This document shows, piece after piece, positions 6,501-59,139 of a stretch of 64,000 nucleotides of DNA. A model generated the notes under the pieces. That model ran no database searches, was not told where the DNA came from, and worked only from the letters and a program-made list of their open reading frames with translations. Within the stretch, counting starts at the first letter, position 1. Each line of letters begins with the position of its first letter. Source of the stretch: a virus; IMG/VR virus record IMGVR_UViG_3300027833_000022, positions 1 through 64,000 of that record, one strand, 5' to 3'. The position numbers and the translations under genes are program-made.

Positions 6501-6804
6501 CGATATATAGCGAACCTTCGGATAGATATAAATCTCTCCATTTCATAGTTGGTGATCCAAGATCGTAACCTGTTGTTCCGTCTGAATCTATTGTTGGGAT
6601 AATGTGACCTGACATGAATAGATCGCCATTACCCGATATTCCTTGGTTATTTCCTGCTACGCCTGCTATTGCGGTATCTACGTAGACTTTTGTTGCTGCA
6701 TGATCTGTCTGGGTAGGTGAACCAGTGATGGATAAATTACCACCAATCTGCGAATCGCCATTGGTTATAAAACCACCTTCCATATTAAAACGTTTTTGAC
6801 TCAT
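538..6804 (-). CDS. Giant collagen-repeat fibre/adhesin with three beta-propeller-like cassettes (2088 aa)
   Basis: Gly-X-Y tracts separate three ~480-aa modules with ~50-aa '[13 protein letters not shown]' repeats. Contains the [19 protein letters not shown] fibre motif. AAGGAG SD and late promoter upstream. Confidence 0.8.
2668..4417. repeat. Near-identical ~217-bp direct repeat (2668-2884 and 4201-4417) at the 3' flanks of fibre cassettes
   Basis: Both copies encode [66 protein letters not shown] with few nucleotide differences. Confidence 0.9.
4076..5664. repeat. Identical 47-bp direct repeat (4076-4122 and 5618-5664) at the 5' flanks of fibre cassettes
   Basis: gcttgaccattaggtaacgtacctgttgctacaaagtctctagaacc occurs twice ([16 protein letters not shown]). 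Confidence 0.9.
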
Positions 6805-6832
6805 GATTAAGCTTCTCCTTTAGTTAACTGTA

Positions 6833-6840
6833 CTATTTAT
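6833..6840 (-). promoter_or_regulatory. T4-type late promoter (ATAAATAG)
   Basis: TAAATA core ~30 nt upstream of the fibre start; identical copy at 10235-10242. Confidence 0.65.
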
Positions 6841-6882
6841 GGAAAAACTATAGTCAATTAAACTCACATACATTATAGCCAC

Positions 6883-6909
6883 AAAAAAGCCCACATTATG
6901 TGGGCTTTT
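6883..6909 (-). terminator. Rho-independent terminator
   Basis: AAAAAAGCCCACATTATGTGGGCTTTT hairpin with T tracts. Confidence 0.8.
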
Positions 6910-6957
6910 ATTATCTAGTTGATATTATTGTATTTTCAATAACAACATCGATATATC

Positions 6958-9900
6958 TTATGCTATCTTGATTAACATTGTTGTGTCAGTAAGTGCCATT
7001 CCAATTTTAACTGCATCTTCACCAGTAACAGTACTGATACCGCCTTCTTTTTGAGCATAGTAAATCGATCCAGCAGTCAACCCAGTAAATCCAGTCATCT
7101 GTCCATCAGTCTGAACAGATACACTATTACCTGTTAAACCATCCTCAGATGAGATGCCTATCAATCTATCAGCAGAAAGATTACTTACATCGGGTGAGCT
7201 GTGCTGGTTTACTATGGCTGCACCTGTCATTTCCATACATGATATATATCTACCAGTGTTACCCAAGTTAACATGCATACTATATTTACCATGTGCTGCT
7301 GTCTGTTGGTTTAATGCTGCTCCATGAGCAGAAGATGCATTAATTGTTGTGCTTACAGGATCAGTAGTTACAATAGTAATCTCGTTTGCATCCGGCGTTA
7401 CTACCTGACTGTCAGTAACGTTAGATATCGTACACTTGATAAGGTAGTCAGTTCCAATCATAATTTCAGTATCATCATGCGGATTGAAACAAACATTCTG
7501 TGCCGTTTCTTGATCAGCCATATTACCCATTGTTGAACCTGTAGACAAGATGACATCTCCAAGGTCCCTTGCTGTTCCTACTGTGACCGAGCCACTACCT
7601 TCATTGAATACAGTACCTATAACAATATCTGTTTGAGCATGAGATGAAGGACCAGTTAGTGATTTAACTACTAATGCAAATCGTCCACCTGTACTTGAAT
7701 CAAAATTAGGTTCCCATGCAAAACTCTTTCCTCTGAAATAAGACGTTGCGTGATCACCAATGGACACCGTATCATTGGGAGAAAAGGTATCGCCAACAAT
7801 ATCAACAACCTGTACGCACGAACCACCAGAAGTCTTACCAAAAGCCAATAGCATCTTGTTCCCATCATCTGGGAAGAATCTACAATAATCTGAGTTAGAA
7901 GTTTGCATGCCAGGAGAATACGTAGCTAACACGTTAAACGTAGTATCACTTGTCAGTTGACATAACTCAACCCTTCCGTGTTGTCTACTAGTCTGAATAA
8001 ATCTGCCAGATACGGTAGGATGCAACGAAAACGATCCATAACTATAAGATCCACCGAAAGTATGAAAACCGCCTAGATCAGTTAACGCTAATGTACTTGC
8101 GTCTATACTGAATCGCAAGGTCACACTATTTGGACCTGAGCGAAACCAAACAATACCTTCATTGACTGGATCAAACTGAGAGTCAAGACCAGAAGCTGAT
8201 TGCGCAGTACCAGTTGCAAGACCAGCACGCAGGCTTGGTCCCCAAGTTACTGATCCGTCTGCTGCAACCAAACCAACGTTATGTTGTGGTGTTGAGTCAC
8301 CAGCAGAAACCATAAATCTGTTAGGATTAAACGGATCTACCGAAACATAATAATTATTATTATTAGAAGGTATAGCATGACTGTGTGTTCCAGTATTTGG
8401 ATATGCTATTCCTTCTAGTATCGAAGCAGTTTGACCCGGATTCAGATATGGCGTTTCAATCTTTCCCGATGCATTCATTATAACTGCATCACGAGCATCT
8501 ATATTTGTAGCAAGTTCAAGACTAATTGTGGAACTTGAACCACCACCAGTTGCACCATCTGCACCTGCTGGTCCTGCTGGTCCTGCTGTACCTTGTGGTC
8601 CTGCTGGACCTGTTGCGCCAGTTCCTGCTGCTGCTAATATTTTAGCATCAATTTCAGATTCCATTGGAATCGTTGCATTCCAAGTTGGTGCGGCTGATAT
8701 TTCCATGTAAAATGCACTGTGAGAGCCGCTTGCGTAGGTTATGAATTCAAGAGAAGATGCTTGACCATGTGTAAATAAGAGACTCGTGCCGGGTATCTGC
8801 ATACCAGCATTAGTTGATATATTAGAAATTAATGTATTATTATTCTGATCATATATATTAAATTTTCCCCTAAGTGCAGCACTTGTACCTTGTACCAATG
8901 CATAATTGCCATTATCATAGTCTATTCTCGTCAATCCAATATTATGCTGTGTCCAATCAGAGAACCAATTTGAAATAGTAACTGGTGAAACAAATGTTAT
9001 TGTTTTCGGACCAGAAGTATTATATACTACGAATATATTATTTGTCTCACCAGTAGCGTTGATTGTAACACCCGAAGACACTGATGCAACATGAGAAGCA
9101 GTAAGCTGCTCTGATCCAACTGCGGCTACCGTCTTTTTCCATTCGAAGGTGGATGGTTTAAACCAAGCAAGATCAATAGTAGATGCAGCAGGTTCAGATT
9201 CTTGCATATACACATTATCAAAACTTGCACCTGCACCATCTGCACCATCTGCGCCATCTGCGCCTGCTGCGCCATCTGCACCATCTGCACCATCTGCACC
9301 AGCAGGTCCTGCTACACCATCTGCGCCAGCAGGTCCATCTTCGCCTTGTATACCTTGGATTCCCTGTGGTCCTGTTGCACCAGATCCCGCTGGTCCTTGT
9401 GGTCCCGCTGGTCCTGTTGCACCTGTTGCGCCTGTTGCGCCTGTTGAGCCTGCGTTGACTCCGCTAATTTGAGCATCTACGTAAGCGATAGTTGCTTTCA
9501 ATGCTAACTCATTTGTCATTGTACTTGCGAAATTAGCATCATCACCAAGTGCATTTGCTAATTCATTCAACGTATCTAGTGCGCCTGGCGCACCATTAAT
9601 AATATTTGATATTTCTTGATCTACGTAACCTTTTGTAGTTACATGGCCTGCCGAAGTTGGTGATCCAACATTAATAATTTGATTATTATCTAGATCGACT
9701 TTGTCGCCAAATACAACTGCATTGCCACCTTGGTCGGTAATTTTCATACCTGTCGCCATTTGCAATGTTGCTGCCATGTTTATAGTAGTATCAGAATCGA
9801 GTGTTAATACTCCCGTACCTGTAACTTTTGTTGTGAGTGATTGATTCGGATCTGCTTGAACAACAATAGTTCCACTGTTTGATTCAATAACCTTTTGACC

Positions 9901-13173: not shown

Positions 13174-13268
13174 TATTTAATTCTCCTAATGCCTTAGTTT
13201 TGTTTTAGGTATTAAATGGATTATTCCACTAATACAAGTTTGCCTTTGTTTTCTTACTTAGCCTATAC

Positions 13269-13297
13269 AGTATACTTCTTTTCATGCCTACTGTCAA
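13269..13297 (-). promoter_or_regulatory. sigma70-type promoter for gp32-uvsX-uvsY
   Basis: TTGACA-N17-TATACT. Confidence 0.8.
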
Positions 13298-13331
13298 GCA
13301 CTTTTTCGTTTTAATTTGATTTAATATTTAG

Positions 13332-13429
13332 TGAAGATATTACGTTGTTAATGCAGGCTCTCAACTGGCGCTGCTTCTTTTATTGAAGATATTACGTTGT
13401 TAATGCAGGCTCTCAACTGGCGCTGCTTC
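13332..13429. repeat. Perfect tandem 46-bp repeat, 52-bp period, possible structured RNA
   Basis: tgaagatattacgttgttaatgcaggctctcaactggcgctgcttc at 13332-13377 and 13384-13429. Confidence 0.95.
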
Positions 13430-13437
13430 ATTTATAT

Positions 13438-13599
13438 TTATTCTTCTTTGATAATAGACCAGATGCCATATACAAGGGCAATCCATGCTGCTACGTTTAG
13501 CAAAGGAGCTGCTAATAGAATTGCTAGTGCAGTACCAATTAATACTGCACCATCTAATGATGTACGTTCTGTTAAGCGACCTTTCATCCAATTAATCAT
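13438..13599 (-). CDS. Small membrane protein (holin-like topology; function unassigned)
   Basis: MINWMKGRLTERTSLDG followed by ~35 hydrophobic residues; start immediately after the upstream stop. Confidence 0.6.
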   Translation of the reverse strand: MINWMKGRLTERTSLDGAVLIGTALAILLAAPLLNVAAWIALVYGIWSIIKEE

Positions 13600-13600
13600 A

Positions 13601-32193: not shown

Positions 32194-35100
32194 TTAAATG
32201 TTGATGTAAGTAGAGATTACTTTAACCGATGCTGTAACAGCACTTGTAGTATAAGTAAGTTCAACGTTGCCTGCATTCATTGCTACAGATGCATCACCCA
32301 TTAATGCAGCGCCGGTGTAAACCATTGCGAATTCAGTGATATATGCTGCTGATCCGTCATGAACAACTAATGCTTCACGAGTCTCGTATTCACCACTTAC
32401 GCTATCACTAACTTGGATAACATACTTAGCAGAACGATACAATGATGAATCAAATGTATCAATAACATCACCACCAGTAGTTGCTGAAACGTTACCAGAC
32501 TGAATAAATGGCTTAACATCTGCTGCTAACTTCTCAGAAGTAACCGCACCTGCTTGAACAGTATAACCAGTTTGATGACCCACAAGAACTGCTTGCGTAC
32601 CAGTTGGTATTGCACCTGCTGTGAATGTAATCGTTTGAGCAACAGAGTTAACAGTGTAGTGAGATGATGGATCTTGAATAACACCACCAACGAATACCAT
32701 TAAGTCTTCTGCTGTACCGATTTCGAAAGTTACTGCGAATGTAGTTGTTACATCATCACCATTCAATGTTTGACGCTGTACATCTGACACTAAAAGACCA
32801 GTAGGATCAACAAGAACCATGCCTGTTCCTTCTGGATTAACTACTGCAATATAGTTAGCAGTTGTATCGTAATTAACTTCTGAACCTGCAAAGTCAGATA
32901 ATTCTAAGAATGACTTCTGTGTATCAACAGTAACAACACCATCTGCGTAAGATACGCGACCTGTTCCTTCTGTGTCAACTACTGAGATTGCTGCGTGTGC
33001 ACGAGCATCAGTGAAGTATAAGTTCGTTGAACCTTCTGCTAAACTATCAGTGTTAGTAGTACTAATAGCAGATGATGAAATTAAACCATCAACGTAAGAC
33101 TTAGATGCTGCATCGGTTGCTGCACTAGGAGTTGCCAAGCCAGAGATGACGTTAGAACCCATGTTTAGTACACCAGACATTGTTGAACCAGATTTTGCAA
33201 CCTTAGTATCAATGTCAGATTGAAGAACAACTTCTGCTGCTAGTGCACGAGTTTCTTCTGTTACTACTGCTGCTGCGTTGGTTGATTCAACACCCATTGC
33301 ACGAGTTCTTTCTGTTACTACTGCTGCTGCGTTAACACCTTCTGCGGTTGTTGCACGAGTTACTTCATCTGAAATATCATTTGCATTATCAGTAATAAGA
33401 GTACTTAGACCACTGTCTGCTGATTGGAATGCTGCAAGCAATTCAGTCAATGAATCCAATGCTACATTATCAGTGTTTGAAGTTATAAAGTCAATCTGTC
33501 CTTGTAAGTTTAAATCTGCTGCTGCACGATCTACAAGTTCAGTTGCTAAACCATTTGTAACCGAAGTCACATTGCCAGTAAGAACAAGTTCTGCTGCAAC
33601 TGCACGATCTCTCTCGGTTACTACTGCTGTTGCGTTAACACCTTCTGCGGTTGTTGCACGAGTTACTTCATCTGAAATATCAGTTGTGAGTACACCTTCT
33701 GCTGCGATAGCGCGATCTGCTTCTGCTTTTAGTGCTGCATCAAGTTTCATGTCTGCACTTGCAAGTGAAGTTGCAGTATCGTGATAGTTTGATGTAGTAG
33801 GAGCAACATATGCACCAGTTACTGATAAACCAGCACCAGACTGTGTGGCAGTGATTTCAGTCAAGTTAGATGCGATATCTGTTGCCAAACCAGACTCTAC
33901 GCCAGTTGCACGAGATACTTCTGTACTAATTGCTGTTGCGTTAACACCTTCTGCTGCACGTGCTGTGCCTGCTTCTGCTGCAATTGCATTAGTTGCAACA
34001 AGTTCTGCTGCAACTGCACGAGTCTTTTCTGCAAAAATTGCTGCATCAAGCTTCATGTCTGCATCAGCTAATGAAACTGCTGAATCATGATGATTAGAAG
34101 TAGTAGGAGCAACATATGCGCCTGTTGATGATAAGCCTGCTCCAGATTGTGAAGCATCTAATTCATTTTGAATTAAAAGATCGGCTGCTGCAAAATCTGA
34201 ACGAACTTGTGTATCATTACCTGATACTGCATTAGTCAATACTAATTCTGCTGCTTCTGCGCGATTTTTTTCTGTTACAATTGCTGTTGCATTAGTAACA
34301 ATTGCTGCTTCGGCTGTATCAAGTTCTGCTTGAATATTACCTAAACCAGATACGCTAGAAGCGTCAAGTTCGTTGATCGCTGCTGTTACAGTTTGTGCGT
34401 CAGTAGACAATACTGCTACGCCCATAGTTGCTTGTAGAGTATCTACGTTGCCTTCTTCTGTAGTCATACGTGTTGCTAGTGCACTTTCTGCTGCAAGAGC
34501 GCGAGTTTCTTCTGATGTAATAGCGGTAGTATTTACACCTTCTGCTAATAATGCGCGAGTTCTTTCTGTACCTACTGCTGTTGTGTTAAGACCTTCTGCT
34601 GCTAGTGCACGAGTTTCTTCTGCTGCAATTGCTGCTGTATTAGACTGAACAGTGGCAAGTGTTGAACTGTCTGCTGCCGTAAATGCTGCCACAATCTCAG
34701 TCAATGAATCCAATGCTGCGCCATCAGTGTTTGTGTTGATGAATGCAATTGCAGTTGCGTTGGTTGCTACGTCAGTAGTCAATACCGACTCTGCTGCTTC
34801 TGCACGAATCTTTTCTGCTGCAATAGCGCCTGCGTTAACAACTTCTGCTGCTTCTGCACGAGTTACTTCTGCTGCTAAATCATTAGTCAATACTAATTCT
34901 GCACTAACTGCTCTTGCATTATTTGTTACAATAGATGCTGCGTTAGTAGCGATATCAGTTGCGTTAGTAGCAATATCGATTGCGTGAGCCGCATCTGCCG
35001 CTGTTGCACGTGTTACTTCGTTATCAACCTTAGTATCTATCAATGCTTCTGCTGCTTCTGCACGAGTTACTTCTGCTGTAATTGCTGCGTCGTTGACTCC

Positions 35101-37338
35101 TTCTGCTAGTGCTGCACGAGATGCTTCAGTCTTGAGTGCTACGTCTAACTTAACGTCTGCGTCATTCAATGAAGTCGCTGCTGAGATATAATCTGCTGAT
35201 GCAGTTTGTGTATATGCACCTGTTGCTGCTAAACCAGAACCAACTTGAGTTGCATCAAGTTCTGCTTGTACATCATCAATGTTATCTTGTAATGCAACAT
35301 CTGCGATACCACGATCAACAATCTCTTGAGCGATATTAGTTACGTTAGTAGCGATATTAGTTACGTTAGTAGCGATATTAGTTGCGTTAGTACCTTCTGC
35401 TGCGCGTGCTGTGACTGCTTCTGCTGCGATAGCGTCTGCGTTAGCCTTCATCTGTACGTCTAACTTAATGTCTGCATCTTTTAATGAAGTTGCTGCTGAG
35501 ATATAATCGCCAGTTGCATGTGCTGTATACGTTCCATCAATTCCTAAACCAGCGCCAGTTTGGGTATCATCTAATTCTGCTTGAATTGCATCTGTATCAC
35601 CTGATGCACCTGTTGCAATAGCATCAATGTTATCTTGTAATGTAACATCTGCTGCTGCACGAGTGCCTGCTTCTGCTGCAATAGCGTTAGCGTTAGCAAC
35701 TTCTGCTGCGCGTGCAATGGCTGCTTCTGCTGCAATATTTGCTTGCAATGTATTATCATTTGCTAAACGTGTTGCTTCTTCATCAGAAATAGCAGTTGCG
35801 TTTGTAGTAATAAGTCCTGCAAGGCCTGTATCTGCTGCTTCATATGCAGTTACCAATTCAGCCAACGAGTTTAATGCAACTGCGTCAGTGTTTGTAAGAA
35901 TATTTCCAATCGCTGTTGCGTTAGTTGCGATGTCTGTTTCATTAGTTGATACACGAACTTCTACAGCATTTGTATCTGTATGTAATTCGTTTATAGCACC
36001 ACTCAATGTTTGTGCAACAGTACCTAATGTTGCTGAACCTGATTGTGCTTCAATAACGTCAAGACGACCTTCTGCTGCGTCCATCTCAGTTTCTAGTGTA
36101 GTAGCACGACCAGCAAGGACTGCGTCTGCTGCGTCTGAGGTAACTGCACGAGCTACGTCTTTTGCTTCTGCTGATGCAATTGCGTCTGCTTCTGCTGTAT
36201 CTGCTTTAGTAGTTGCGTCTGCTGCTGCTGTTGCAACTGCGTCTGCTTCTGCTGTATCTGCATAAGTCTGTAATGCAGTTGTTTGTGCTGTGTCTGCTGC
36301 TGCAAATTCGCCACGAATTGCTGTGTCTGCAAGACCACGTGCAGTAGTTTCGTTTGTTAGTGAAGATGACAATGCACTTTCTGCTGCTGTTGCACGAGTT
36401 TCTTCTGCTGCGATATCAGATACGTTAGTAGCGATGTCTGCTGCGTTTGCTGCGATCTCTGCTGCACTTGAACCAGATAGACCAGATACACTAGCTTCTA
36501 GTGCGTCAATTGCGTCTGCGTTAGTCTTCATCTGTGCATCTAACTTAACGTCTGCATCATTCAATGAAGTCGCTGCTGTAAGATAGTTAGTTGAAGCGCC
36601 TACTACATATGCGCCTGATGCTGCTAATCCTGCGCCTGCTTGCGAAGTATCTAATTCAGATTGAGTATTACTTATACTAGCATTTAATACACTATCTTGT
36701 GCTATACGATTACTAGTTTCAGTACTAATGCTGTTTGCGTTTGTCTGAACACTAACAGTAAATACATCATCTGCTTCTGAGAATGCTGTAACAATTTCAG
36801 CCAACGAGTTTAATGCAACTTCGTCAGTGTTGTTCAAAATATTATTTATTTGCGTTTGCAAGTTAGTATCAGCCAATTGATACGCAGTGGTTATTGACCC
36901 TTCTGCTCCTGTTGCACGAGTTACTTCTGCTGCGATAGAGTCTGCGTTTGCAACTTCTGCTAATGTTGCACGATTAGTTTCGTTTGTAATACTAGTTGCG
37001 TTTGCGCCTTCTGCAATCATTGCACGAGTCTTTTCAGTTAATACTGCTGCTGCGATATCATCTGCGACTGCGTCTTTCGCACGTTGGTCTGTAAAGTATA
37101 AATTTGCATCTACACCAGTACCTTCTGCTAAGTCATTAGTATCTAATGAGTTTACTAAATGACGTACTGTAATACGTGATAATGTTTCCGAACTTGCTAC
37201 GTGCAATAACAAAGTGTCGGTGTCTAATGAGTTCACTGCCAATGCTGCATCTTGGCCAGATACTGCTGATGGTGCTACTTTCGTTGGCGTAATTGCTGCG
37301 TTCGCCAGTGCTGGTGCTTTAATCTGTCTAAAAGCCAT
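32194..37338 (-). CDS. Very long segmented coiled-coil fibre/whisker protein (~1714 aa)
   Basis: Ala-rich 'AEVTRATAAE' coiled-coil repeats, TDSLAEGSTNLYFTD motifs, C-terminal 'YRSAKYVIQ' domain; GGAG SD before MAFRQIK. Confidence 0.8.
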   Translation of the reverse strand: MAFRQIKAPALANAAITPTKVAPSAVSGQDAALAVNSLDTDTLLLHVASSETLSRITVRHLVNSLDTNDLAEGTGVDANLYFTDQRAKDAVADDIAAAVLTEKTRAMIAEGANATSITNETNRATLAEVANADSIAAEVTRATGAEGSITTAYQLADTNLQTQINNILNNTDEVALNSLAEIVTAFSEADDVFTVSVQTNANSISTETSNRIAQDSVLNASISNTQSELDTSQAGAGLAASGAYVVGASTNYLTAATSLNDADVKLDAQMKTNADAIDALEASVSGLSGSSAAEIAANAADIATNVSDIAAEETRATAAESALSSSLTNETTARGLADTAIRGEFAAADTAQTTALQTYADTAEADAVATAAADATTKADTAEADAIASAEAKDVARAVTSDAADAVLAGRATTLETEMDAAEGRLDVIEAQSGSATLGTVAQTLSGAINELHTDTNAVEVRVSTNETDIATNATAIGNILTNTDAVALNSLAELVTAYEAADTGLAGLITTNATAISDEEATRLANDNTLQANIAAEAAIARAAEVANANAIAAEAGTRAAADVTLQDNIDAIATGASGDTDAIQAELDDTQTGAGLGIDGTYTAHATGDYISAATSLKDADIKLDVQMKANADAIAAEAVTARAAEGTNATNIATNVTNIATNVTNIAQEIVDRGIADVALQDNIDDVQAELDATQVGSGLAATGAYTQTASADYISAATSLNDADVKLDVALKTEASRAALAEGVNDAAITAEVTRAEAAEALIDTKVDNEVTRATAADAAHAIDIATNATDIATNAASIVTNNARAVSAELVLTNDLAAEVTRAEAAEVVNAGAIAAEKIRAEAAESVLTTDVATNATAIAFINTNTDGAALDSLTEIVAAFTAADSSTLATVQSNTAAIAAEETRALAAEGLNTTAVGTERTRALLAEGVNTTAITSEETRALAAESALATRMTTEEGNVDTLQATMGVAVLSTDAQTVTAAINELDASSVSGLGNIQAELDTAEAAIVTNATAIVTEKNRAEAAELVLTNAVSGNDTQVRSDFAAADLLIQNELDASQSGAGLSSTGAYVAPTTSNHHDSAVSLADADMKLDAAIFAEKTRAVAAELVATNAIAAEAGTARAAEGVNATAISTEVSRATGVESGLATDIASNLTEITATQSGAGLSVTGAYVAPTTSNYHDTATSLASADMKLDAALKAEADRAIAAEGVLTTDISDEVTRATTAEGVNATAVVTERDRAVAAELVLTGNVTSVTNGLATELVDRAAADLNLQGQIDFITSNTDNVALDSLTELLAAFQSADSGLSTLITDNANDISDEVTRATTAEGVNAAAVVTERTRAMGVESTNAAAVVTEETRALAAEVVLQSDIDTKVAKSGSTMSGVLNMGSNVISGLATPSAATDAASKSYVDGLISSSAISTTNTDSLAEGSTNLYFTDARAHAAISVVDTEGTGRVSYADGVVTVDTQKSFLELSDFAGSEVNYDTTANYIAVVNPEGTGMVLVDPTGLLVSDVQRQTLNGDDVTTTFAVTFEIGTAEDLMVFVGGVIQDPSSHYTVNSVAQTITFTAGAIPTGTQAVLVGHQTGYTVQAGAVTSEKLAADVKPFIQSGNVSATTGGDVIDTFDSSLYRSAKYVIQVSDSVSGEYETREALVVHDGSAAYITEFAMVYTGAALMGDASVAMNAGNVELTYTTSAVTASVKVISTYINI

Positions 37339-51831: not shown

Positions 51832-53851
51832 GTATATTCTCCGATGTTTTTATCTTTTCTACTTCTTCAACAACTTGTCGTAAGTGGTCAACAAGTGAAC
51901 TATCTAATTGGTACATATTTTTAAACTTCATACCAACTATATTTAACTCATCTACATATACTTTTTTACTACCTATAGGTGAATCAGGATCTCTTATATT
52001 AGCATACCATCTACCATCAGGACGCTGAATTGGAACCGGACCACCGCCTTCTGCAAATTGCTCTGGACTGAAATGTTTGTTTAAAATATTATATGCTGAT
52101 AAATATTTTTGTGCATCAACTTTATCTTCATCTATGCTGGTTGGTTTATATTTTCCTATATTACTTATATAGGCATTTGCCTCCGCAGATGGATGTCCTT
52201 GTCCCATGCGCTTTGGTAATCCTTTAGAAGTTGTATATGGTTCTTTTTCATCATTATCATCATCTTCTGACGGTATCAATCCAACAAGTTTAAGTCCACC
52301 TTCAACTGATCTCAGTGCACCTTCAAACTTTTTAACAGCGATTGCACCTAGTGCATAACCAGGAGTTAATTCATGTACCACCGATCTAAATGCAATTCGC
52401 GCTGCATCTATTGCATCAATTGAACTATCTGCTTGTTCAGTCAATGCTCTGACATTCTCTAACCCAGAATCTAATTGATTTTTTGTCAAATCCATGAATG
52501 CTTCTGGTGCTATACGTGCTTGTGCTATTAAATCGTTTGATTGTTGAACTATAGGGTCATCTCCATATCTGGGACTCGCCTTTGATATTGATGTTGTTAA
52601 TTCTTTTACTCTCATCACCAATTCTGGTTGTGTTAGTTGCCCTGTTCCAGATTGTTCCAATATATCTGTAAATTTCTTTGACACATCAGGACCAAGTGCA
52701 CTCAACATATTAATCATTTCTTTAGGCATATTATTTAATACAGATGAATCTATATTGATATCTTTCAAAAAATTATTAAATACTTGTTCTGTTTGCTCTC
52801 CAAATTGAGGACCTAGTACAGTGCTGAATAGCATCTTTATATTTGCTCCAGTATTTCTAACATTCTCTTCTGCATTTTTTCCGTACTTATCTGACAGATA
52901 TTTGGCATTCATAGATATTGCTGTCATAAAATCTATATTGGTCATCGCTTCACTTCGCATTGCCAATAATGCACTTCTCTGATCACCAAATTTTTCTGCA
53001 AGAAACGTAGTCATTGCACTACTTGATTCAAAATTCTTTCTTATTTTATCTTTCGCCACTTGACCAAATTGTTCTAATTCACCTGTCATGTACATTAAAT
53101 TGGCTTCTTCTAACAATCTTGCAGTTTGTTGTTCAACATTGTAACCAAAATCACCCATTGTCTTTGATGCATCAGATTCTACTTTTCCAGCAAAATTTAT
53201 AAATTGAATTGTAGTATCCATCAAGTCTGCTGGCATATTTGCAAGCATGACTTTATTTCCTGTCATAATTTTTGACATTTCTTGCATACTCATGCCAACG
53301 CCCGCTAATGCTTCTCTCATAACAGTATATTGATTCATATTACCAACAACACCGCCATAGTCTATTATTTGTCTTAATCCTTTTTCTTGCTCGGACATAA
53401 GTTTTGCATATATTGCGGTTACGCCAACTGCTGCAACTGCGGCTCCTGTGCCAAAATTTAATAACGATGACACGACTGCCCCCTTAGGACCAAGATATTT
53501 TGAAAACGAAGTTATACCACCAATTGTGTCATCTATTGCTCCGACACTCAGTTTCAATAATTCTGCGGTTGCTACCAATGGATCAGTATCTCGTGTAGCA
53601 ACACCAAACAAATTTTTAGATGCGGATTCCATCTTTATAATTAGTTTGTTTGTTTTTTTAAATGATTTTTCAGAATCTTCAAATTCTTTTTTAACAACAT
53701 CATAATCAAACGCAACACCAGTTAATGACTTAAATGTCTTCTTTAACTTATTATTATCAGATTCGGTTGCTGCGGCAATCTTCCCTAATGTATCCTCACT
53801 TGCCCAAGGATAACGCTGGTGAATCTGCCTGATGTCGTCTTCTATTGCCAT
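51821..53851 (-). CDS. Tape-measure-like protein A (676 aa), paralog of B
   Basis: Shares the N-terminal PWASE.TL.KIA motif and helical pattern with 49771..51831. Confidence 0.55.
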   Translation of the reverse strand: MAIEDDIRQIHQRYPWASEDTLGKIAAATESDNNKLKKTFKSLTGVAFDYDVVKKEFEDSEKSFKKTNKLIIKMESASKNLFGVATRDTDPLVATAELLKLSVGAIDDTIGGITSFSKYLGPKGAVVSSLLNFGTGAAVAAVGVTAIYAKLMSEQEKGLRQIIDYGGVVGNMNQYTVMREALAGVGMSMQEMSKIMTGNKVMLANMPADLMDTTIQFINFAGKVESDASKTMGDFGYNVEQQTARLLEEANLMYMTGELEQFGQVAKDKIRKNFESSSAMTTFLAEKFGDQRSALLAMRSEAMTNIDFMTAISMNAKYLSDKYGKNAEENVRNTGANIKMLFSTVLGPQFGEQTEQVFNNFLKDINIDSSVLNNMPKEMINMLSALGPDVSKKFTDILEQSGTGQLTQPELVMRVKELTTSISKASPRYGDDPIVQQSNDLIAQARIAPEAFMDLTKNQLDSGLENVRALTEQADSSIDAIDAARIAFRSVVHELTPGYALGAIAVKKFEGALRSVEGGLKLVGLIPSEDDDNDEKEPYTTSKGLPKRMGQGHPSAEANAYISNIGKYKPTSIDEDKVDAQKYLSAYNILNKHFSPEQFAEGGGPVPIQRPDGRWYANIRDPDSPIGSKKVYVDELNIVGMKFKNMYQLDSSLVDHLRQVVEEVEKIKTSENIHGG

Positions 53852-53933
53852 AATTAAGTACCTATTTAATAGGATAAATACAGTTACGAAACTATTTTAT
53901 CACTTTACTTACTATTTATATGGAGTACAAAAA

Positions 53934-54764
53934 ATGAGTAACAATCCTTTATTGAATGCGTACAAAGTACCATCAACTTACATAAGTCTACCTTCTGGTG
54001 GGAAATATTACACCGAAAAGCCTAAATTAAGTGCTGACGGTGAATTGGCAATCTACCCAATGACAGCAAGAGATGAAATAATCTCAAAGACACCAGATGC
54101 ATTATTTAACGGAGAAGCAACTGTTGCGTTACTTGAATCATGTTGTCCAGATATAATTGACCCTAAATCAACACCCGTTAATGACTTAATGGTAATATTA
54201 CTTGCTATACGCAAAGCGAGTTATGGAGATGGAATAGACATTGATATTAAATGCCCATCTTGCAGTGAATTTAACATGCTTGAAATGGATATAAACCGAA
54301 TTCTTGGATCTGTGAAATCTAACGAAATATCAAACACATTGAAATTACAAGATAAATTTGATGTCAAGTTGAAGCCCTATAATGTGAATGATAGAACATT
54401 AATACAGATACAACAAATCCAACAAGAACGAATGATACAAGAACTTGCGAATTCTGATTTATCGGATGAGGATAGAAATAAAAAATTTGGAAAAACATTT
54501 GTAGATATATCCACGCTTACAATTAATCTTATGGTAAATTGCATTGTATCTGTATCATTCGATGGTGATGTGATAATTGATAGGGAAATTATTAGAGAAT
54601 GGTTACATAATATAACAAAGTCTGATTATAAAGAGATGAAAGATCATATTGAAAAAATCTCAGATAGTGGCATCAATACTGAATTTAAGGCAGTATGTCA
54701 ACACTGTTCACATGAATGGGAATCTGAGGTAGAACTAGATATGTCAAATTTTTTCGCAGGCTGA
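53934..54764 (+). CDS. Baseplate hub assembly protein (gp26-like) with CxxC pairs
   Basis: Y..LPSGG.YY, MTARDE, D....LLAIR.ASYG, CPSC, CQHC...NFF; GGAG SD at ATG 53934; late motif at 53874-53881. Confidence 0.8.
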   Translation: MSNNPLLNAYKVPSTYISLPSGGKYYTEKPKLSADGELAIYPMTARDEIISKTPDALFNGEATVALLESCCPDIIDPKSTPVNDLMVILLAIRKASYGDGIDIDIKCPSCSEFNMLEMDINRILGSVKSNEISNTLKLQDKFDVKLKPYNVNDRTLIQIQQIQQERMIQELANSDLSDEDRNKKFGKTFVDISTLTINLMVNCIVSVSFDGDVIIDREIIREWLHNITKSDYKEMKDHIEKISDSGINTEFKAVCQHCSHEWESEVELDMSNFFAG

Positions 54765-54961
54765 TAGCAACAAGTCAGCCGCACGAAATACCAGACATAC
54801 TGAACAGATATAAAAATGATCTAACTAAACTAAATTCTAATTATATGGATATTCTCATTATTTCACAAGGTGCATTGACATACGAATCATTGATGTCTAT
54901 GCCATTACCCATGATTGACTTATTTGTCAAGAGACATAATGAAAGAAATAGCGAATCATAA
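54749..54961 (+). CDS. gp51-like frame, probably reached by -1 frameshift from the gp26-like gene
   Basis: Not in the ORF track. Reads FFRRLIATSQPHEIPDILNRYKNDLTKLNSNYMDILIISQGALTYESLMSMPLPMIDLFVKRHNERNSES, starting at slippery T-TTT-TTC. Confidence 0.6.
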   Translation, partial: FFRRLIATSQPHEIPDILNRYKNDLTKLNSNYMDILIISQGALTYESLMSMPLPMIDLFVKRHNERNSES

Positions 54962-54980
54962 TCGTTCACTATTTCATCAT

Positions 54981-55650
54981 AGTATTTCTTTGTTTAAGGA
55001 ACAACATAATAATGTAGTCACATAAACATTGCTTCGCAATGAACATCTTCGTAAAATATCTCATTCGTTACACTCATTCGTATTTTACTTAATGTTGTTC
55101 TTTAAACACATACTGTTTCTAACTGTTATCAATGATATATAATGATTGGGCTATTGTATAACTATTATCTATTTTTCCAGGATCTTGATCCACACTTCGC
55201 TTATGCAGCGAAAGTGAAAAATTTGTTAAATGAAAAGAAAGTTTTTTCCTATCACCCAATCACACTTCGATATAACAAACCCAATTTTACACTTGGGGGA
55301 GGCGGTTACGCTGTACCTCTTATTACATGCTGCTTCAAGCAACGCAAGAACATCAATTTCCATATCGTCGGATTTTGACTACTCGTAGGTTTCAATAGTT
55401 CAGAAGAGCCTACTCTTTTCGGTTGGTCAGACCAGTGCAATGACCAGAGAGAAACACGTGGAAGTCCATCGGCTTCGCCTCAACGGCGGCAGATTCATCA
55501 CGGATACGGTATCAGTATCATCCATCTAAGTTTTATAGGGTTCTGAGGGGAGTTGCCAATGTGGGGTGTTTAAGTGCTTGTTTAGAGGGTTGTTTAAGTT
55601 TTTTGTTTAAGTTTTTTGTTTAAGTTTTTTGTTTAAGTGTTTATTCGTTT
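54981..55650 (-). ncRNA. Putative large structured non-coding RNA or replication-origin region
   Basis: No credible ORF, many short hairpins, own sigma70 promoter, long terminal inverted repeat; family not recognised. Confidence 0.5.
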
Positions 55651-55652
55651 AA
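55567..55652. repeat. Array of TGTTTAAG-like 8-mers at 12-13-bp spacing
   Basis: (TGTTTAAGTTTTT)x3 plus flanking exact and degenerate copies. Confidence 0.85.
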
Positions 55653-55654
55653 TA

Positions 55655-55682
55655 AGTATACATGATTTTTAGTGCCTGTCAA
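55655..55682 (-). promoter_or_regulatory. sigma70-type promoter firing into the non-coding region
   Basis: TTGACA-N16-TATACT with no ORF downstream. Confidence 0.7.
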
Positions 55683-55690
55683 GTATAATT

Positions 55691-56149
55691 TCATTTGCCT
55701 GAGGATTTAGTTTCGTTTAGGTGTTCTTTAAGAACTTTTGAGCCGCCAACTCTAACATTGATGATTCCATTATAGTAATCATCTGTTTCAAGTACTCTGC
55801 GTTCAAACTGTTCGCGTGCTTCTAGATAACTGGCAATGCCTCTTGTTGGGCACATATGAATAATTTCTCGTGTGAAACTATCTTTGCCTAGTTCTTCAAC
55901 GTCTGCATTAAGTCTATCACTGGAACCAAAATATTCTTTCCAATCACTTTCTTTAGTACCACGTCTTTTATTCTTTTTTCCTTTCAGTGGCGGTTTAGTA
56001 GTTTTAAACTTTGCTAGTTTTTTACCTACATACAACATACCACTGACTGTATTTGTTATTACATAAACAAATGCTTCGCATCCTTCCGGCAACTTTTCTA
56101 CTACATTACCTTCATATGTCCATTCATATGTTACATTATTTTTTTCCAC
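55691..56149 (-). CDS. Minimal GIY-YIG family endonuclease
   Basis: FVY-x10-YVG, YFGSS, LE...Q and YYN motifs; no C-terminal DNA-binding domain. Confidence 0.8.
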   Translation of the reverse strand: MEKNNVTYEWTYEGNVVEKLPEGCEAFVYVITNTVSGMLYVGKKLAKFKTTKPPLKGKKNKRRGTKESDWKEYFGSSDRLNADVEELGKDSFTREIIHMCPTRGIASYLEAREQFERRVLETDDYYNGIINVRVGGSKVLKEHLNETKSSGK

Positions 56150-56342
56150 TTACTGCTCTTATTTTTTGTAGAATATCAGCACCAACATTTTGCATGATTT
56201 CTATACTATTGAAATCTGATTCGTAAATCCATATTGTATCAGTTTCATCGCCAGTCAGATCGATCTCGATCTGACTAACGTCAGTTGCATTGTCTGTTGT
56301 TACAGGTTCTTTATCAATGCCAATCTTTTGTTTATGTCTCAA
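56136..56342 (-). CDS. Hypothetical protein
   Basis: 68-aa ORF overlapping both neighbours; GGA SD. Confidence 0.45.
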   Translation of the reverse strand: MRHKQKIGIDKEPVTTDNATDVSQIEIDLTGDETDTIWIYESDFNSIEIMQNVGADILQKIRAVSGKK

Positions 56343-58104
56343 TTATTTCCATCTCTGTATTAAATGTAGTGAATCCATTCTCTTTTGTAACTTGCAATAC
56401 ACTATTGACACGACCAATTAATTCATCTCTGTGCGAAATAAGTAGAATATCTTTATTTCGTTCACGCTCCATTTTCTTTAAAACGGTTAATGCACTTTCA
56501 ACACCTACACTATCCATGCCAGAATCAATTAATTCATCAATGCACATTAAGTTGATTGCAGAATTCATACTCTCGTACACATCTCTGAATGCCCAACTTA
56601 ATCCTAGAATTAAACGATTACGTTCACCCCTAGATAAATTGTCAAAATCTAAATCTTGTCCTAATTGCACAATGCTAACAGACAAGTCACTCTGAAATTT
56701 AACTTCATGTGGTAATCCTAGTTGTGTAATATAATGATCTAGACGAACATTAAGGAACTGTAGATTTTGTTCAATAATACGCTTCCGAATAAACGAGTCC
56801 TTGTTTGTTAATAGTTTTAATAAAAAATCCTGATGATCTTTGATATCGGTTAAACGATTAAGTTCATCCCAATCAACTGCTTGTAAACCAGTATCTTTTA
56901 GTGTATCAATTTGTTCTTGATAAGGATCTGAATCATTTGTTGTACGTTCAATTGCTGCGATTGTATTAGACAACTTGTTCTGATGTTCATATGCTTCTTG
57001 TACTGTTTCGTAAAATAATCTAGGAGGAACACCTAAATCACCTATGTTGTTTAGTTCAATGGTATATGTTTCAATCGTATTTACATCTATCGCTATCTGT
57101 TCTTTATACTCGGCGACTGCTACCGTTTTTGTTTCAAGAATTTGTTCATGTTTTTCATCATGAATCTCTTGTCCACATGCGTAGCATTTATGTTCCATAG
57201 ACGCTTCTAAATCTTCGACTGCCTTAATGAGTCGTTTATTTTCACGATCTAAGGTTGTTGTTAATTTCGCAATATCTTTGGTGTATGAATTAAATTTATT
57301 TCTTCTTGTTGTATATTCTTCAAACGCAATATGTGCTTCTAGTTCAACTTCTATATCGATTTCATACAACGTTACCAAGTCTATCTCAAGTTCTTTAATA
57401 GTTTGTTCATTAGTTTTATGCCATAGACGTTGTCTACGTTCTAAATCTTTGATACTTGTATTAAATCGTTCATTCGCATCTTCGACTGCACGAACACGAT
57501 AATTTTCTTCTTGAATACGTTCTTTGCCTATCTTGATAAGGTCTTTAAGTAATTCAGCTTTATCAGATAGTTGAGTGATACCTAACAGTTGTTCGATCAA
57601 CTCCCGCTGATCATTTGCACGCATACTCAAGAATGGCTCAGTGTATGTATTTAGTGCAATAATATGCTTGAACATTGTGTGAGTCATACCAATAACTTTT
57701 TCAATCGCAACCTGTGTTAAACGACCCTCGCCCTGACCTTCATCAGTCATATCACTGTTATCTACTTCATTTACATAGAATTTAAAAACATTGGGACTGC
57801 GTCCGCGTTCAATACGATATTGAGAACCATTCTTTTCAAAATCAACTGTGACAGTCATGTGCTTATTGTTGATCTTATTGATAAGATTTGATTTTTTAAT
57901 ATTAAATAATGCACTACCAAATAGTGCATATGAGATTGCGTTAATAAGAGTAGTCTTACCAACTCCATTACGAGAACCATCACCGCCCATATCGACATTA
58001 TTGCCCAGTACGAGAGTTAGTCCTGTTTCATTAATGGAAACAGCCTGAGTGACGTTACCTACTGATAAAAAGTTTTTAATTGTGACATTCTTAATTGTGA
58101 GCAT
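56332..58104 (-). CDS. gp46: Recombination endonuclease ATPase subunit (gp46, Rad50/SbcC-like)
   Basis: KNFLSVGN, NGVGKTT, CYAC zinc hook, LSRGE signature, IDELIDSG.D, ISH motifs. Confidence 0.95.
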   Translation of the reverse strand: MLTIKNVTIKNFLSVGNVTQAVSINETGLTLVLGNNVDMGGDGSRNGVGKTTLINAISYALFGSALFNIKKSNLINKINNKHMTVTVDFEKNGSQYRIERGRSPNVFKFYVNEVDNSDMTDEGQGEGRLTQVAIEKVIGMTHTMFKHIIALNTYTEPFLSMRANDQRELIEQLLGITQLSDKAELLKDLIKIGKERIQEENYRVRAVEDANERFNTSIKDLERRQRLWHKTNEQTIKELEIDLVTLYEIDIEVELEAHIAFEEYTTRRNKFNSYTKDIAKLTTTLDRENKRLIKAVEDLEASMEHKCYACGQEIHDEKHEQILETKTVAVAEYKEQIAIDVNTIETYTIELNNIGDLGVPPRLFYETVQEAYEHQNKLSNTIAAIERTTNDSDPYQEQIDTLKDTGLQAVDWDELNRLTDIKDHQDFLLKLLTNKDSFIRKRIIEQNLQFLNVRLDHYITQLGLPHEVKFQSDLSVSIVQLGQDLDFDNLSRGERNRLILGLSWAFRDVYESMNSAINLMCIDELIDSGMDSVGVESALTVLKKMERERNKDILLISHRDELIGRVNSVLQVTKENGFTTFNTEMEIIET

Positions 58105-58107
58105 AGT

Positions 58108-59139
58108 TTATATGTGTAAATCGTTATATATTGAAATTAAAGTTTCGTTACGAATAGAATTAGATGTTATCGCTTCAAGTTGACTAAGAACAATTGAGTC
58201 AACATTTTCTACTGATACATCACCATCCGTATCCCAGTCTTCGCCAGATACATTATCCTTCTTAGAAGGCATTAGAGATATCTCACGTAAATCATAATCA
58301 TTAGCAAATGTTTCTTTAATATAATTCGCTTCTTCATATGAAATATTGATATCTAATATTATACGACAATGTGTGTTGTTTGTCAAGATACTACCAGCAT
58401 CATCTAACAATTGACTCAAGTTCGCTACACGATACTTTGGTGCATCATGCCAAGTTTTGAAATCATATGTACCATCCCAGTTTAGGAAAGTGATACCACG
58501 TTTATCATCCCATGCGTCAGAATAGTTATGTGGAAAACAGTTTCCTGGATAGATAATATTACCTTTTTCCTGACGTTTGTGAAAATGACCAGAGAATACT
58601 TTATCTGCTTTCGATAAGTCAGATGCTTTTAACCCACCGTGATCTGGCATTTTAATCATAGCATTCAGATAAAAATCAGGTAATTCAAAGTGACCGAAGA
58701 TAAACTTAGACTTCAATTCCTTCAATCTCTTCCATTCATCATCAACCAACCATGGGACAAACGCAACACCATCTTCTTCAAATATTTCATCATTGATGAT
58801 GTTAATGTTAGGGTACTTATTTGCAAATGGAAGTGAGTTGATATCTCTTTTTTCACGATAATATAGATCATGATTTCCCATGATCATATGTACTTCGTCA
58901 AAATTATCATTCAATATCTGTAGCGCATCAACTGTGTAATTCAGAGTACCAACATTAATAGTTGCTCTGTGATGATGCCAGTCACCTAAGAAGAAACATT
59001 TTTTAATGTTTCGACTATGTGCTTCTTCTATCATCCATTTAATAAAGTTAAGACAATCATTGTTATGCATCTTAGAATTATTTTTAAGACCGAAATGTAT
59101 ATCTGTAAAAATTACTGCTTCATCAAAAAATTTACTCAC
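58108..59139 (-). CDS. gp47: Recombination endonuclease nuclease subunit (gp47, Mre11/SbcD-like)
   Basis: TDIHFG, LGD, GNHD, GHFE, SGHFH metallophosphoesterase motifs. Confidence 0.95.
   Translation of the reverse strand: MSKFFDEAVIFTDIHFGLKNNSKMHNNDCLNFIKWMIEEAHSRNIKKCFFLGDWHHHRATINVGTLNYTVDALQILNDNFDEVHMIMGNHDLYYREKRDINSLPFANKYPNINIINDEIFEEDGVAFVPWLVDDEWKRLKELKSKFIFGHFELPDFYLNAMIKMPDHGGLKASDLSKADKVFSGHFHKRQEKGNIIYPGNCFPHNYSDAWDDKRGITFLNWDGTYDFKTWHDAPKYRVANLSQLLDDAGSILTNNTHCRIILDINISYEEANYIKETFANDYDLREISLMPSKKDNVSGEDWDTDGDVSVENVDSIVLSQLEAITSNSIRNETLISIYNDLHI

What the first reader, a model, noticed from the sequence alone, without database searches (positions are those of the whole stretch)
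54962..56149. Minimal GIY-YIG nuclease followed by a promoter-driven, ~650-nt highly structured non-coding locus: candidate nuclease-RNA system or RNA-primed origin
Seen: this is the only large ORF-free gap in a densely packed genome. It has its own TTGACA-N16-TATACT promoter 8 bp after the nuclease stop. The core (~55175-55565) is visibly more GC-rich and tiled with stems: CACTT-CGCT..AGCG-AAGTG (55193-55216), CCCAA..TTGGG (55280-55297), GAGG..CCTC (55299-55319), TGCTT-C-AAGCA, GTAGG..CCTAC, TGGTCA..TGACCA, CGCC-TCAAC-GGCG, GATAC-G-GTATC. The nuclease is only a catalytic domain with a very basic insert (KTTKPPLKGKKNKRRGTK) and no NUMOD/HTH specificity domain. Known: HEARO/omega-RNAs were first noticed as structured RNAs beside HNH ORFs, and T4 origins use promoter-driven R-loops. 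Inference: the RNA may be a partner or guide of the nuclease, or a replication primer working with the upstream gp46/47. I cannot assign it to tRNA, tmRNA, RNase P or group I/II intron families.
Basis: partly seen in the sequence, partly recalled or inferred. Interest (0 to 1): 0.85.

Follow-up and report, generated by a model that had tools for sequence, protein, structure and literature searches.

The report
Twin-box phage RNA beside small nuclease
The gene-free gap behind a small nuclease gene of this uncultured giant T4-like phage encodes a real, knotted non-coding RNA. It is a divergent member of the orphan Polynucleobacter-1 RNA family that current RNA libraries miss, its job is unknown, and the nuclease looks more like a fixed neighbour than a partner.

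Summary
54765-55690 is the largest ORF-free gap in the window, and a conserved TTGACA-N16-TATACT promoter sits 8 nt after the stop of a 152-aa SegE-type GIY-YIG nuclease.

The conserved core (about 55163-55443, minus strand) is a structured RNA. On 49 diverse homologues, 53 base pairs in 13 helices, including two pseudoknots, are 97% kept, and 34 show compensatory changes. G-U pairs fix the strand.

Rfam gives no hit in this window. In more distant relatives and in freshwater Burkholderiales, however, the same core lies directly 3' of Rfam Polynucleobacter-1 (RF01718). This RNA is therefore a variant of that orphan family, with the catalogued 5' domain replaced. This scan has found the family before on other DNA.

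One short word occurs twice in every member (here GGAAAAA), identical within an RNA and different between RNAs. No complement to it was found.

In 164 non-redundant phage loci the slot upstream holds either the GIY-YIG nuclease (152) or an unrelated PD-(D/E)xK nuclease (12). It is never empty.

The nuclease has been exchanged between phages carrying different RNA variants, and bacterial copies instead sit beside a minimal tyrosine recombinase. A guide-RNA role is not shown and an origin role is unlikely. The function remains unknown.

The parts
55691..56149 (-). 152-aa SegE-type GIY-YIG nuclease, catalytic domain only, with a basic insert
   Evidence: PF19835 matched 1-123/123, E 3.9e-33. PHROG 447 matched full length. 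AlphaFold model pLDDT 89.8; best PDB fold is the I-TevI catalytic domain, probability 0.97.
55655..55682 (-). sigma-70-type promoter TTGACA-N16-TATACT, 8 nt after the nuclease stop
   Evidence: 11 of 12 consensus matches. Both hexamers are conserved and the spacer varies in relatives with gp46 at 65-93% identity.
55568..55637 (-). A-rich leader with 13-nt repeats (CTTAAAC x5 on the minus strand)
   Evidence: Tandem Repeats Finder, period 13. Copy number differs among close relatives and the repeats are absent in L114 and the L117 type. This is a lineage-specific feature.
55444..55567 (-). variable 5' region occupying the place of the RF01718 domain
   Evidence: Diverges faster than the core. 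RF01718 does not match it at E<=10.
55163..55443 (-). conserved RNA core: a multi-helix junction (H1-H6, H56) with two pseudoknots, plus the 3' hairpin H7
   Evidence: 97-100% identical in relatives whose genes are 80-92% identical. The nhmmer profile and CM R1 match it. 53 pairs, 34 with changes on both sides, 97.1% paired against 81.2% in shuffles.
55435..55437 (-). 5' strand of the junction-closing helix H1 (CAC); it pairs with 55263-55265
   Evidence: All three pairs covary. This strand can pair equally well with the second GUG at 55191-55197.
55243..55249 (-). box 1 of the twin word (GGAAAAA)
   Evidence: The same 5-9-nt word occurs at both fixed places in 49 of 49 RNAs. Own-RNA longest common string averages 7.0 nt, against 3.7 nt between RNAs.
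55172..55178 (-). box 2 of the twin word (GGAAAAA)
55191..55218 (-). hairpin H7 (CACUU-CGC / GCG-AAGUG). Its 3' strand AAGUGUG repeats the H1 3' strand at 55261-55267.
   Evidence: Ten pairs, four with changes on both sides. The two modules are identical at the varying position in 92% of RNAs.
55027..55041 (-). terminator-like hairpin CATTGC-GAA-GCAATG followed by TTTAT; probable 3' end of the primary transcript
   Evidence: Terminator scan. The stem is kept in close relatives and in L114 with a different loop.
55060..55080 (-). two CGAATGAG repeats in the 3' extension
   Evidence: Conserved in close relatives and L114. Role unknown.

Best explanation
The gap is an RNA gene. Host RNA polymerase probably starts at the conserved sigma-70-type promoter (55682-55655, minus strand) and reads leftward for about 630 nt, to a terminator-like hairpin at 55041-55027.

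The functional heart is a compact core of about 280 nt (55163-55443). It comprises a multi-helix junction closed by H1, two pseudoknots (H4 loop GUUR with H5 loop YAAC; H3 loop with the strand after H6), and a 3' hairpin, H7.

This core is homologous to the uncatalogued 3' two-thirds of Polynucleobacter-1-type RNAs. In this phage lineage the catalogued 5' domain (RF01718) has been replaced by a variable region and an A-rich repeat leader.

The RNA carries two copies of a module, AAGUGUG plus spacer plus a 7-nt word. Each copy can close either H1 or H7. I therefore infer a trans-acting, tightly folded RNA, possibly a two-state device or a scaffold that shows the same word twice to a duplicated or dimeric partner.

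The GIY-YIG nuclease upstream is part of the fixed gp47-gp46-nuclease block. I read it as a neighbour that has been swapped horizontally, not as an RNA-programmed enzyme.

Shown: the RNA fold, the strand, the family relationship, the synteny and the twin words. Inferred: the transcript ends, action in trans, bistability, and independence from the nuclease. The biochemical function is unknown.
For: - Conservation: the core is the most conserved patch in about 10 kb (97-100% against 80-92%).
- Covariation: 42 pairs, 26 compensatory, from RNAalifold on 49 sequences. The refined structure has 53 pairs, 34 compensatory, 97.1% paired against 81.2% shuffled and 28-45% when slid. Abundant G-U pairs fit only the minus strand.
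- Spread: the conserved motif hits at least 120 viral contigs, all in the synteny gp47-gp46-nuclease-RNA.
- Family: RF01718 scores 108-121 bits at the syntenic site in relatives with gp46 at 50-55% identity. My core model R1 hits directly 3' of those matches. The same holds in 20 bacterial genomes: RF01718 53-104 bits in all 10 loci scanned, then R1 34-82 bits in all 20. The flanks of Weinberg's 2010 alignment contain core motifs (PMC2864571 supplement).
- Promoter conserved.
- Twin words and interchangeable modules.
- Nuclease independence: an incongruent nuclease tree and identities, replacement by a PD-(D/E)xK nuclease, bacterial copies without the nuclease, and nuclease homologues without a detected RNA.
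Against: - Transcript ends and even transcription are inferred.
- Single-sequence folding energy is not better than shuffles.
- RF01718 itself does not match this window or its clade, so family membership rests on the uncatalogued core and on synteny.
- The slot upstream of the RNA is never empty (152 GIY-YIG, 12 PD-(D/E)xK, 0 empty of 164).
- All three neighbouring enzyme types, including the bacterial 188-aa tyrosine recombinase, are catalytic domains without recognisable DNA-binding domains. This keeps a functional link between the RNA and DNA-cutting enzymes alive.
- No partner for the twin words was found.
Confidence: 0.6

Rival explanations
1. The RNA is a cofactor of the adjacent DNA enzyme. 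It binds the small nuclease (GIY-YIG or PD-(D/E)xK in phages, minimal tyrosine recombinase in bacteria) and regulates, inhibits or targets it. The twin 7-nt words would serve as recognition elements.
For: - The RNA directly follows a small nuclease in 164 of 164 non-redundant phage loci. In B-type phages it starts at the nuclease stop codon.
- All three enzyme families beside it lack recognisable DNA-binding domains. The nuclease is 140-152 aa. The recombinase is 188 aa and aligns only to the catalytic half of XerC/D.
- The words are identical within an RNA and differ between elements.
- The fold is as elaborate as known guide-RNA scaffolds.
Against: - Nuclease and RNA type do not co-evolve: the window's nuclease groups with C-type neighbours.
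- The same words occur with either nuclease family.
- Nuclease homologues exist in contexts where neither R1 nor RF01718 hit, for example beside nrdB in Methylophilales phage Melnitz.
- A 7-nt word cannot specify a unique site.
- No copy or complement of the word lies within 300 nt upstream or 200 nt downstream.
- No protein-RNA test was possible.
Confidence: 0.17
2. The nuclease is a free-standing homing endonuclease. It uses the highly conserved RNA gene, or its border, as its homing site, as T4 SegB does with the tRNA cluster. The RNA then has an unrelated function of its own.
For: - The fold and Pfam family are those of Seg/I-TevI homing enzymes.
- The nuclease phylogeny is incongruent with gp46: nuclease 71-83% identical where gp46 is 51-54%.
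- Two unrelated nucleases occupy the same slot in a mutually exclusive way, as competing homing genes do.
- Extreme DNA conservation next door offers a stable target.
- The SegB analogy is from my own knowledge (Brok-Volchanskaya et al. 2008).
Against: - No empty site among 164 loci. Selfish homing genes are usually sporadic.
- There is no C-terminal DNA-binding domain.
- ORFs are intact throughout.
- The position right after gp46/gp47 also fits a conserved role in DNA metabolism.
Confidence: 0.17
3. The locus is a replication origin. The promoter transcript forms an R-loop primer, and the 13-bp repeats act as iterons.
For: A strong promoter lies next to an A/T-rich repeat array, and the recombination genes gp46/47 are adjacent. 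T4 oriF/oriG use promoter transcripts and oriE has iterons (my own knowledge).
Against: - The repeats vary in number among near-identical relatives and are absent from more distant members.
- What is conserved is an RNA fold, with compensatory and G-U changes.
- The same RNA occurs in bacterial chromosomes in one to three copies.
- Transcription is convergent at this junction.
Confidence: 0.03
4. The RNA is a cis-regulatory leader, riboswitch-like, for the gene downstream on the same strand.
For: In close relatives a 162-aa ORF follows on the same strand. In bacteria the recombinase gene follows about 430 nt downstream on the same strand. Weinberg 2010 marked the motif as possibly cis-regulatory.
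Against: The downstream ORF is deleted in this window, yet the core is intact. It is absent from about half of the phage loci, where a convergent baseplate gene follows instead. A terminator-like hairpin separates the RNA from the next gene.
Confidence: 0.03

Closest known systems
Polynucleobacter-1 RNA motif (Rfam RF01718; Weinberg et al. 2010, Genome Biol 11:R31, PMC2864571)
   Same: It occupies the same syntenic place, directly after the small nuclease gene that follows gp46. Weinberg noted that most examples lie downstream of one gene family with a cyanophage P-SSM2 homologue. The window's core is homologous to the sequence that follows RF01718 in phages and bacteria. The twin words are shared.
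   Different: The 141-position Rfam model does not match this window or its clade, even at E<=10. The catalogued 5' domain is replaced here by a variable region with its own promoter and a repeat leader. The conserved core is not in Rfam. Function is unknown for both.
HEARO / omega RNA of IscB, and TnpB reRNA
   Same: A large structured RNA encoded next to a small nuclease gene, first noticed by comparative genomics.
   Different: No Rfam HEARO hit. The nuclease is GIY-YIG or PD-(D/E)xK, not RuvC/HNH. No variable guide end was found. Nuclease and RNA type do not co-evolve.
T4 SegB homing endonuclease in the tRNA gene cluster
   Same: A Seg-type GIY-YIG gene sits beside highly conserved RNA genes in a T4-like phage.
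   Different: Here the nuclease slot is never empty, the enzyme lacks a DNA-binding domain, and homing has not been tested.
GOLLD and ROOL large phage-associated RNAs
   Same: Large, ornate, orphan RNAs found mainly in phages and mobile elements, with unknown function.
   Different: No sequence or model match. This RNA is smaller, has a different architecture, and has a fixed gene context.

Membership tests
Polynucleobacter-1 RNA (RF01718) | Match to the Rfam covariance model at or above 37 bits | tested here: not met
   No hit in the window at gathering score or at E<=10. None in the whole 103-kb record. None in 33 other members of this clade. The same search gives 108-121 bits in more distant relatives and 53-104 bits in bacteria.
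Polynucleobacter-1 RNA (RF01718) | Homology of the region 3' of the model (Weinberg's 'tail' and flanks) | tested here: met
   CM R1, built from this clade, hits directly 3' of RF01718 in 29 phage loci (E 5e-9 to 0.04) and in 20 bacterial loci (34-82 bits). Shared motifs are visible in the 2010 alignment.
Polynucleobacter-1 RNA (RF01718) | Gene context: directly downstream of the small nuclease gene after gp46 | tested here: met
   text of the 2010 supplement
Polynucleobacter-1 RNA (RF01718) | Twin words after the H1 and H7 3' strands | tested here: met
   Window: GGAAAAA at 55243-55249 and 55172-55178. Seen in 49 of 49 RNAs. Bacterial examples AGAGAAAG and AGCGAAAG.
HEARO / omega RNA (IscB, TnpB) | Rfam match; adjacent RuvC-type nuclease; a variable guide at one end | tested here: not met
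   No Rfam hit. The neighbour is GIY-YIG. No end segment was seen that varies independently of the scaffold.
Free-standing Seg-type homing endonuclease | GIY-YIG catalytic domain | tested here: met
   PF19835, E 3.9e-33. Best PDB fold is the I-TevI catalytic domain.
Free-standing Seg-type homing endonuclease | Separate DNA-binding domain | tested here: not met
   The protein is 152 aa and the profile covers residues 10-130. The family is 140-153 aa long. The model shows only one extra C-terminal helix.
Free-standing Seg-type homing endonuclease | Sporadic presence with empty sites in relatives | tested here: not met
   152 GIY-YIG, 12 PD-(D/E)xK and 0 empty among 164 loci.
Free-standing Seg-type homing endonuclease | Phylogeny incongruent with flanking genes | tested here: met
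   Nuclease is 80-82% identical to C-type loci whose gp46 is 51-54% identical, but 59-70% to A-type loci whose gp46 is 55-69%. The tree places the window clade among C-type rows with SH-like support of 84-90 only.
T4-type replication origin | Conserved iterons or unwinding element with a priming promoter | tested here: not met
   The promoter is conserved. The repeats are not, and the selection seen is on RNA pairing.
tRNA, tmRNA, RNase P, group I/II introns, other Rfam families | Model match | tested here: not met
   ARAGORN found 0 genes. Rfam found 0 at gathering score and only chance-level hits at E<=10.

The most novel reading that the evidence does not exclude
The RNA is a specificity or control subunit for DNA-cutting and DNA-joining enzymes that consist of a catalytic domain only: GIY-YIG or PD-(D/E)xK nucleases in phages, and a 188-aa tyrosine recombinase in bacteria. 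Its two identical, element-specific 7-nt words would read two DNA or RNA sites that share that word. This would be a new class of RNA-programmed DNA enzyme, outside the RuvC/HNH and IS110 systems.
Probability: 0.12. Interest if true: 0.95.

Novelty: new variant of a known kind. Interest (0 to 1): 0.62.

Why it matters
Large, intricately folded orphan RNAs are rare, and several have led to new biology. HEARO, for example, turned out to be the guide RNA of IscB.

This work adds four points about one such family:
- Its conserved part is not the catalogued Rfam motif. It is an uncatalogued, doubly pseudoknotted core of about 280 nt, and a whole phage lineage, including this window, is invisible to Rfam.
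- The core is shared by giant T4-like aquatic phages and by mobile modules in freshwater Burkholderiales. It always lies beside a catalytic-domain-only nuclease or recombinase.
- The nuclease slot is never empty, yet it is filled by two unrelated enzymes.
- The twin words belong to two interchangeable modules, each able to close either of two helices. This suggests a two-state RNA.

Polynucleobacter strains can be cultured, so the function could be tested directly.

Tried and rejected
- Folding energy: single-sequence MFE z-scores are not significant on either strand. I rejected this as evidence either way.
- Coding reading: the few substitutions inside the 78-aa plus-strand ORF (55142-55378) and the 32-aa minus-strand ORF (55427-55525) are mostly non-synonymous, or at first and second codon positions (read from the alignment). 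The Pfam hit DUF3181 is weak (E 0.009). Rejected.
- Early conclusion corrected: from the DNA-level comparison I first concluded that the RNA is not linked to the nuclease. Protein-level synteny showed this was wrong.
- T4 endonuclease II (DenA) reading of the nuclease, which would fit a gp46/47 host-DNA-degradation block: no PDB sequence hit, and Foldseek ranks I-TevI first with no EndoII hit. Not supported, not excluded.
- Partner of the twin words: duplex energies of cognate against non-cognate words show no difference for four parts of the RNA, for 300 nt upstream or for 200 nt downstream. No third copy or reverse complement was found. My model of one central strand pairing with either box failed for the word itself.
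- Phage isolates: only the nuclease gene matches (Melnitz, 70%); the RNA does not.
- Literature: only the 2010 paper names the motif.

Full report
**What is there.** The window is part of a 103-kb IMG/VR virus record, which CheckV puts at about 28% complete. Its baseplate hub protein is most like those of giant myoviruses (Phosso, Atu_ph07, PA5oct, CBB, GAP32), at about 30% identity.

On the minus strand, gp47 (58108-59139) is followed by gp46 (56332-58104), a 68-aa ORF, and a 152-aa protein (55691-56149). That protein matches the whole SegE_GIY-YIG profile. A baseplate-hub gene converges from the left and ends at 54764. Between them lies the largest stretch of the window without an ORF of 90 aa or more, 54765-55690. 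Rfam and ARAGORN find nothing there.

**Conservation.** Eleven near relatives share the gap. In alignments, the stretch 55170-55445 is 97-100% identical in phages whose flanking genes are 80-92% identical. It is the most conserved patch in about 10 kb. The few substitutions do not follow codon positions. Single-sequence folding energy is no better than shuffles. The case for an RNA therefore had to come from more distant homologues.

**Homologues and structure.**
- Anchoring on gp46 gave a graded series of relatives.
- A profile of the core found it in phages with gp46 at 62-85% identity.
- A motif pattern then hit at least 120 viral contigs. All 111 new loci match the full core.
- On 49 sequences less than 96% alike, with mean column identity of 58% (A2), RNAalifold predicts 42 pairs, 26 of them with compensatory changes.
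- Mutual-information scanning added two more nested helices and two pseudoknots: H4 loop GUUR with H5 loop YAAC, and the H3 loop with the strand after H6.
- The refined structure has 53 pairs in 13 helices, 34 with changes on both sides. 97.1% of cells are paired, against 81.2% in shuffles and 28-45% when partners are slid.
- Many conserved G-U pairs fit only the window's minus strand. This agrees with the promoter, whose two hexamers are conserved while its spacer varies.
- A terminator-like hairpin at 55041-55027 suggests a primary transcript of about 630 nt. The transcript ends are inferred; I could not test expression.

**Relation to known RNAs.** RF01718 does not match this window, the whole record, or 33 other members of its clade.

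In relatives with gp46 at 50-55% identity, however, RF01718 scores 108-121 bits right after the nuclease stop codon. My core model R1 hits directly 3' of these matches in 29 loci. A pattern taken from the 2010 alignment fetched 20 bacterial genomes: Polynucleobacter, Limnohabitans and other freshwater MAGs. In all 10 loci scanned, RF01718 (53-104 bits) is followed at once by R1, which matches all 20 loci at 34-82 bits. The flanks in Weinberg's supplementary alignment show the same core motifs. His text notes that most examples lie downstream of one gene family.

The full RNA therefore has two domains, and Rfam holds only the first. In the window's lineage that first domain is replaced, while the second, the core, is the universal part. 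No paper other than the 2010 survey mentions the motif.

A third, more diverged element (C-type, about 480 nt) follows the nuclease in a further large clade. It shares the GACUGAAAC segment and twin words, but matches neither model.

**Twin words and a possible switch.** About 12 nt after the 3' strand of H1, and again about 12 nt after the 3' strand of H7, every RNA carries the same word of 5-9 nt. The word differs between RNAs: GGAAAAA here; GGUAAU, GUCAAG, GCCAAG, GUGAAG elsewhere; AGAGAAAG in bacteria; ACAUGAAG in the C-type.

The helix strands that precede the words are also alike (AAGUGUG twice in the window). They agree at their one varying position in 92% of RNAs. As a result, the H1 5' strand can pair equally well with either module, and so can the H7 5' strand. 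This points to two alternative folds, which is an inference. I found no complement or third copy of the word in the RNA or nearby.

**The nuclease.**
- Its predicted fold (pLDDT 89.8) is closest to the I-TevI catalytic domain. It has no separate DNA-binding domain.
- Among 164 non-redundant loci with gp46, 152 carry this GIY-YIG gene in the slot before the RNA. Twelve carry an unrelated nuclease of about 181 aa (PF24608, PDDEXK_15). None carries both and none is empty. The ten loci my script labelled 'none' are artefacts of its distance filter; searches show the nuclease in them.
- The window's nuclease is 80-82% identical to nucleases beside C-type RNAs, in phages whose gp46 is only 51-54% identical. 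It is 59-70% identical to those beside other A-type RNAs, whose gp46 is 55-69% identical. In the tree it nests among C-type rows with moderate support.
- Homologues also occur in loci where no gp46 was found in the fetched flank and where neither R1 nor RF01718 hit, for example beside nrdB in Methylophilales phage Melnitz.
- Bacterial copies of the RNA have no such nuclease. They lie between a DUF6641 gene and a 188-aa tyrosine recombinase that aligns only to the catalytic half of XerC/D.
- The RNA occurs in 14 of 101 sampled genomes of the genus, in one to three copies. Those copies share little beyond the RNA.

**Weighing the readings.** The RNA gene itself is secure. The nuclease-RNA link is real as synteny, and it is surprisingly strict. 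Even so, exchange of the nuclease between RNA types, replacement by another enzyme family with the same words, and nuclease homologues without the RNA all argue against a co-adapted guide system. Three facts keep a functional link possible: all three neighbouring enzymes are bare catalytic domains, the slot is never empty, and the words are element-specific. I give that reading about one chance in six.

A homing-endonuclease reading explains the incongruent phylogeny and the two competing nucleases, but not the lack of empty sites. The origin reading fails because only the RNA fold, and not the repeats, is conserved. The leader reading fails because the downstream gene is missing here and in half of the family.

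**Verdict.** This is a real, large, pseudoknotted orphan RNA: a new variant of the Polynucleobacter-1 family that Rfam misses. Its function is unknown. This scan has found the same family repeatedly on other DNA. My analysis agrees with those notes and adds the following:
- loss of the RF01718 domain in this lineage
- the C-type relative
- the census of 164 loci
- the horizontal exchange of the nuclease
- the bacterial recombinase context
- the interchangeable-module observation

Noticed in passing
window 54767-54961 (+): An open frame of 65 codons starts right at the stop of the baseplate-hub gene (53832-54764) and has no ATG before 54845. Its product is conserved at 35-53% identity in 37 related loci. 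It is therefore coding, either by a programmed frameshift or from an unusual start.
   Followed up: partly
window about 54984-55016; compare L003:5186-5674: Close relatives carry about 510 extra bases here, with a 162-aa ORF on the minus strand (motif CPYARKAR; weak DUF6217 hit; PHROG 10325). The window has lost it. In the window only, an inverted repeat (54992-55007 and 55092-55107) lies at and beside the junction.
   Followed up: partly
L010-L081, 450-500 nt after the nuclease stop (e.g. L011:4433-4930): A third conserved ORF-free element (C-type) lies behind the same nuclease in a large sister clade. Conserved blocks include GGCGGGCCAG..CCGCUG, GGAACGAAGCG and UGGGAAAGGUCAGAGCCCA, and it has its own twin words (CACAUGAAG / UACAUGAAG, covarying). 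There is no Rfam hit.
   Followed up: partly
L295, L307, L299, L305, L312 (bacterial loci): In freshwater Burkholderiales the two-domain RNA lies between a divergent DUF6641 gene and a co-oriented 188-aa tyrosine recombinase that has the catalytic domain only. The recombinase gene starts about 430 nt downstream. The module is sporadic (14 of 101 genomes of the genus) and occurs in up to three copies.
   Followed up: partly
L183, L190, L215-L217, L237, L243, L250, L259, L261, L267, L272, L285: A PDDEXK_15 nuclease of about 181 aa replaces the GIY-YIG gene in exactly the same slot before the RNA.
   Followed up: yes
window 13174-13600: This is the second largest ORF-free gap (427 nt). It contains a 52-bp tandem repeat, 2.1 copies, 94% matches, at 13326-13435.
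   Followed up: no
window 700-9500 and 33200-36500: There are many 9-bp-period repeats (TGCACCTGT and the like) on the plus strand. These are typical of collagen-like Gly-X-Y tracts read from the minus strand, probably in fibre genes.
   Followed up: no
window 56136-56342 (-): A 68-aa ORF lies between gp46 and the nuclease, with no family hit. ORFs of similar size sit at the same place in relatives, but only L114 shows detectable similarity.
   Followed up: no
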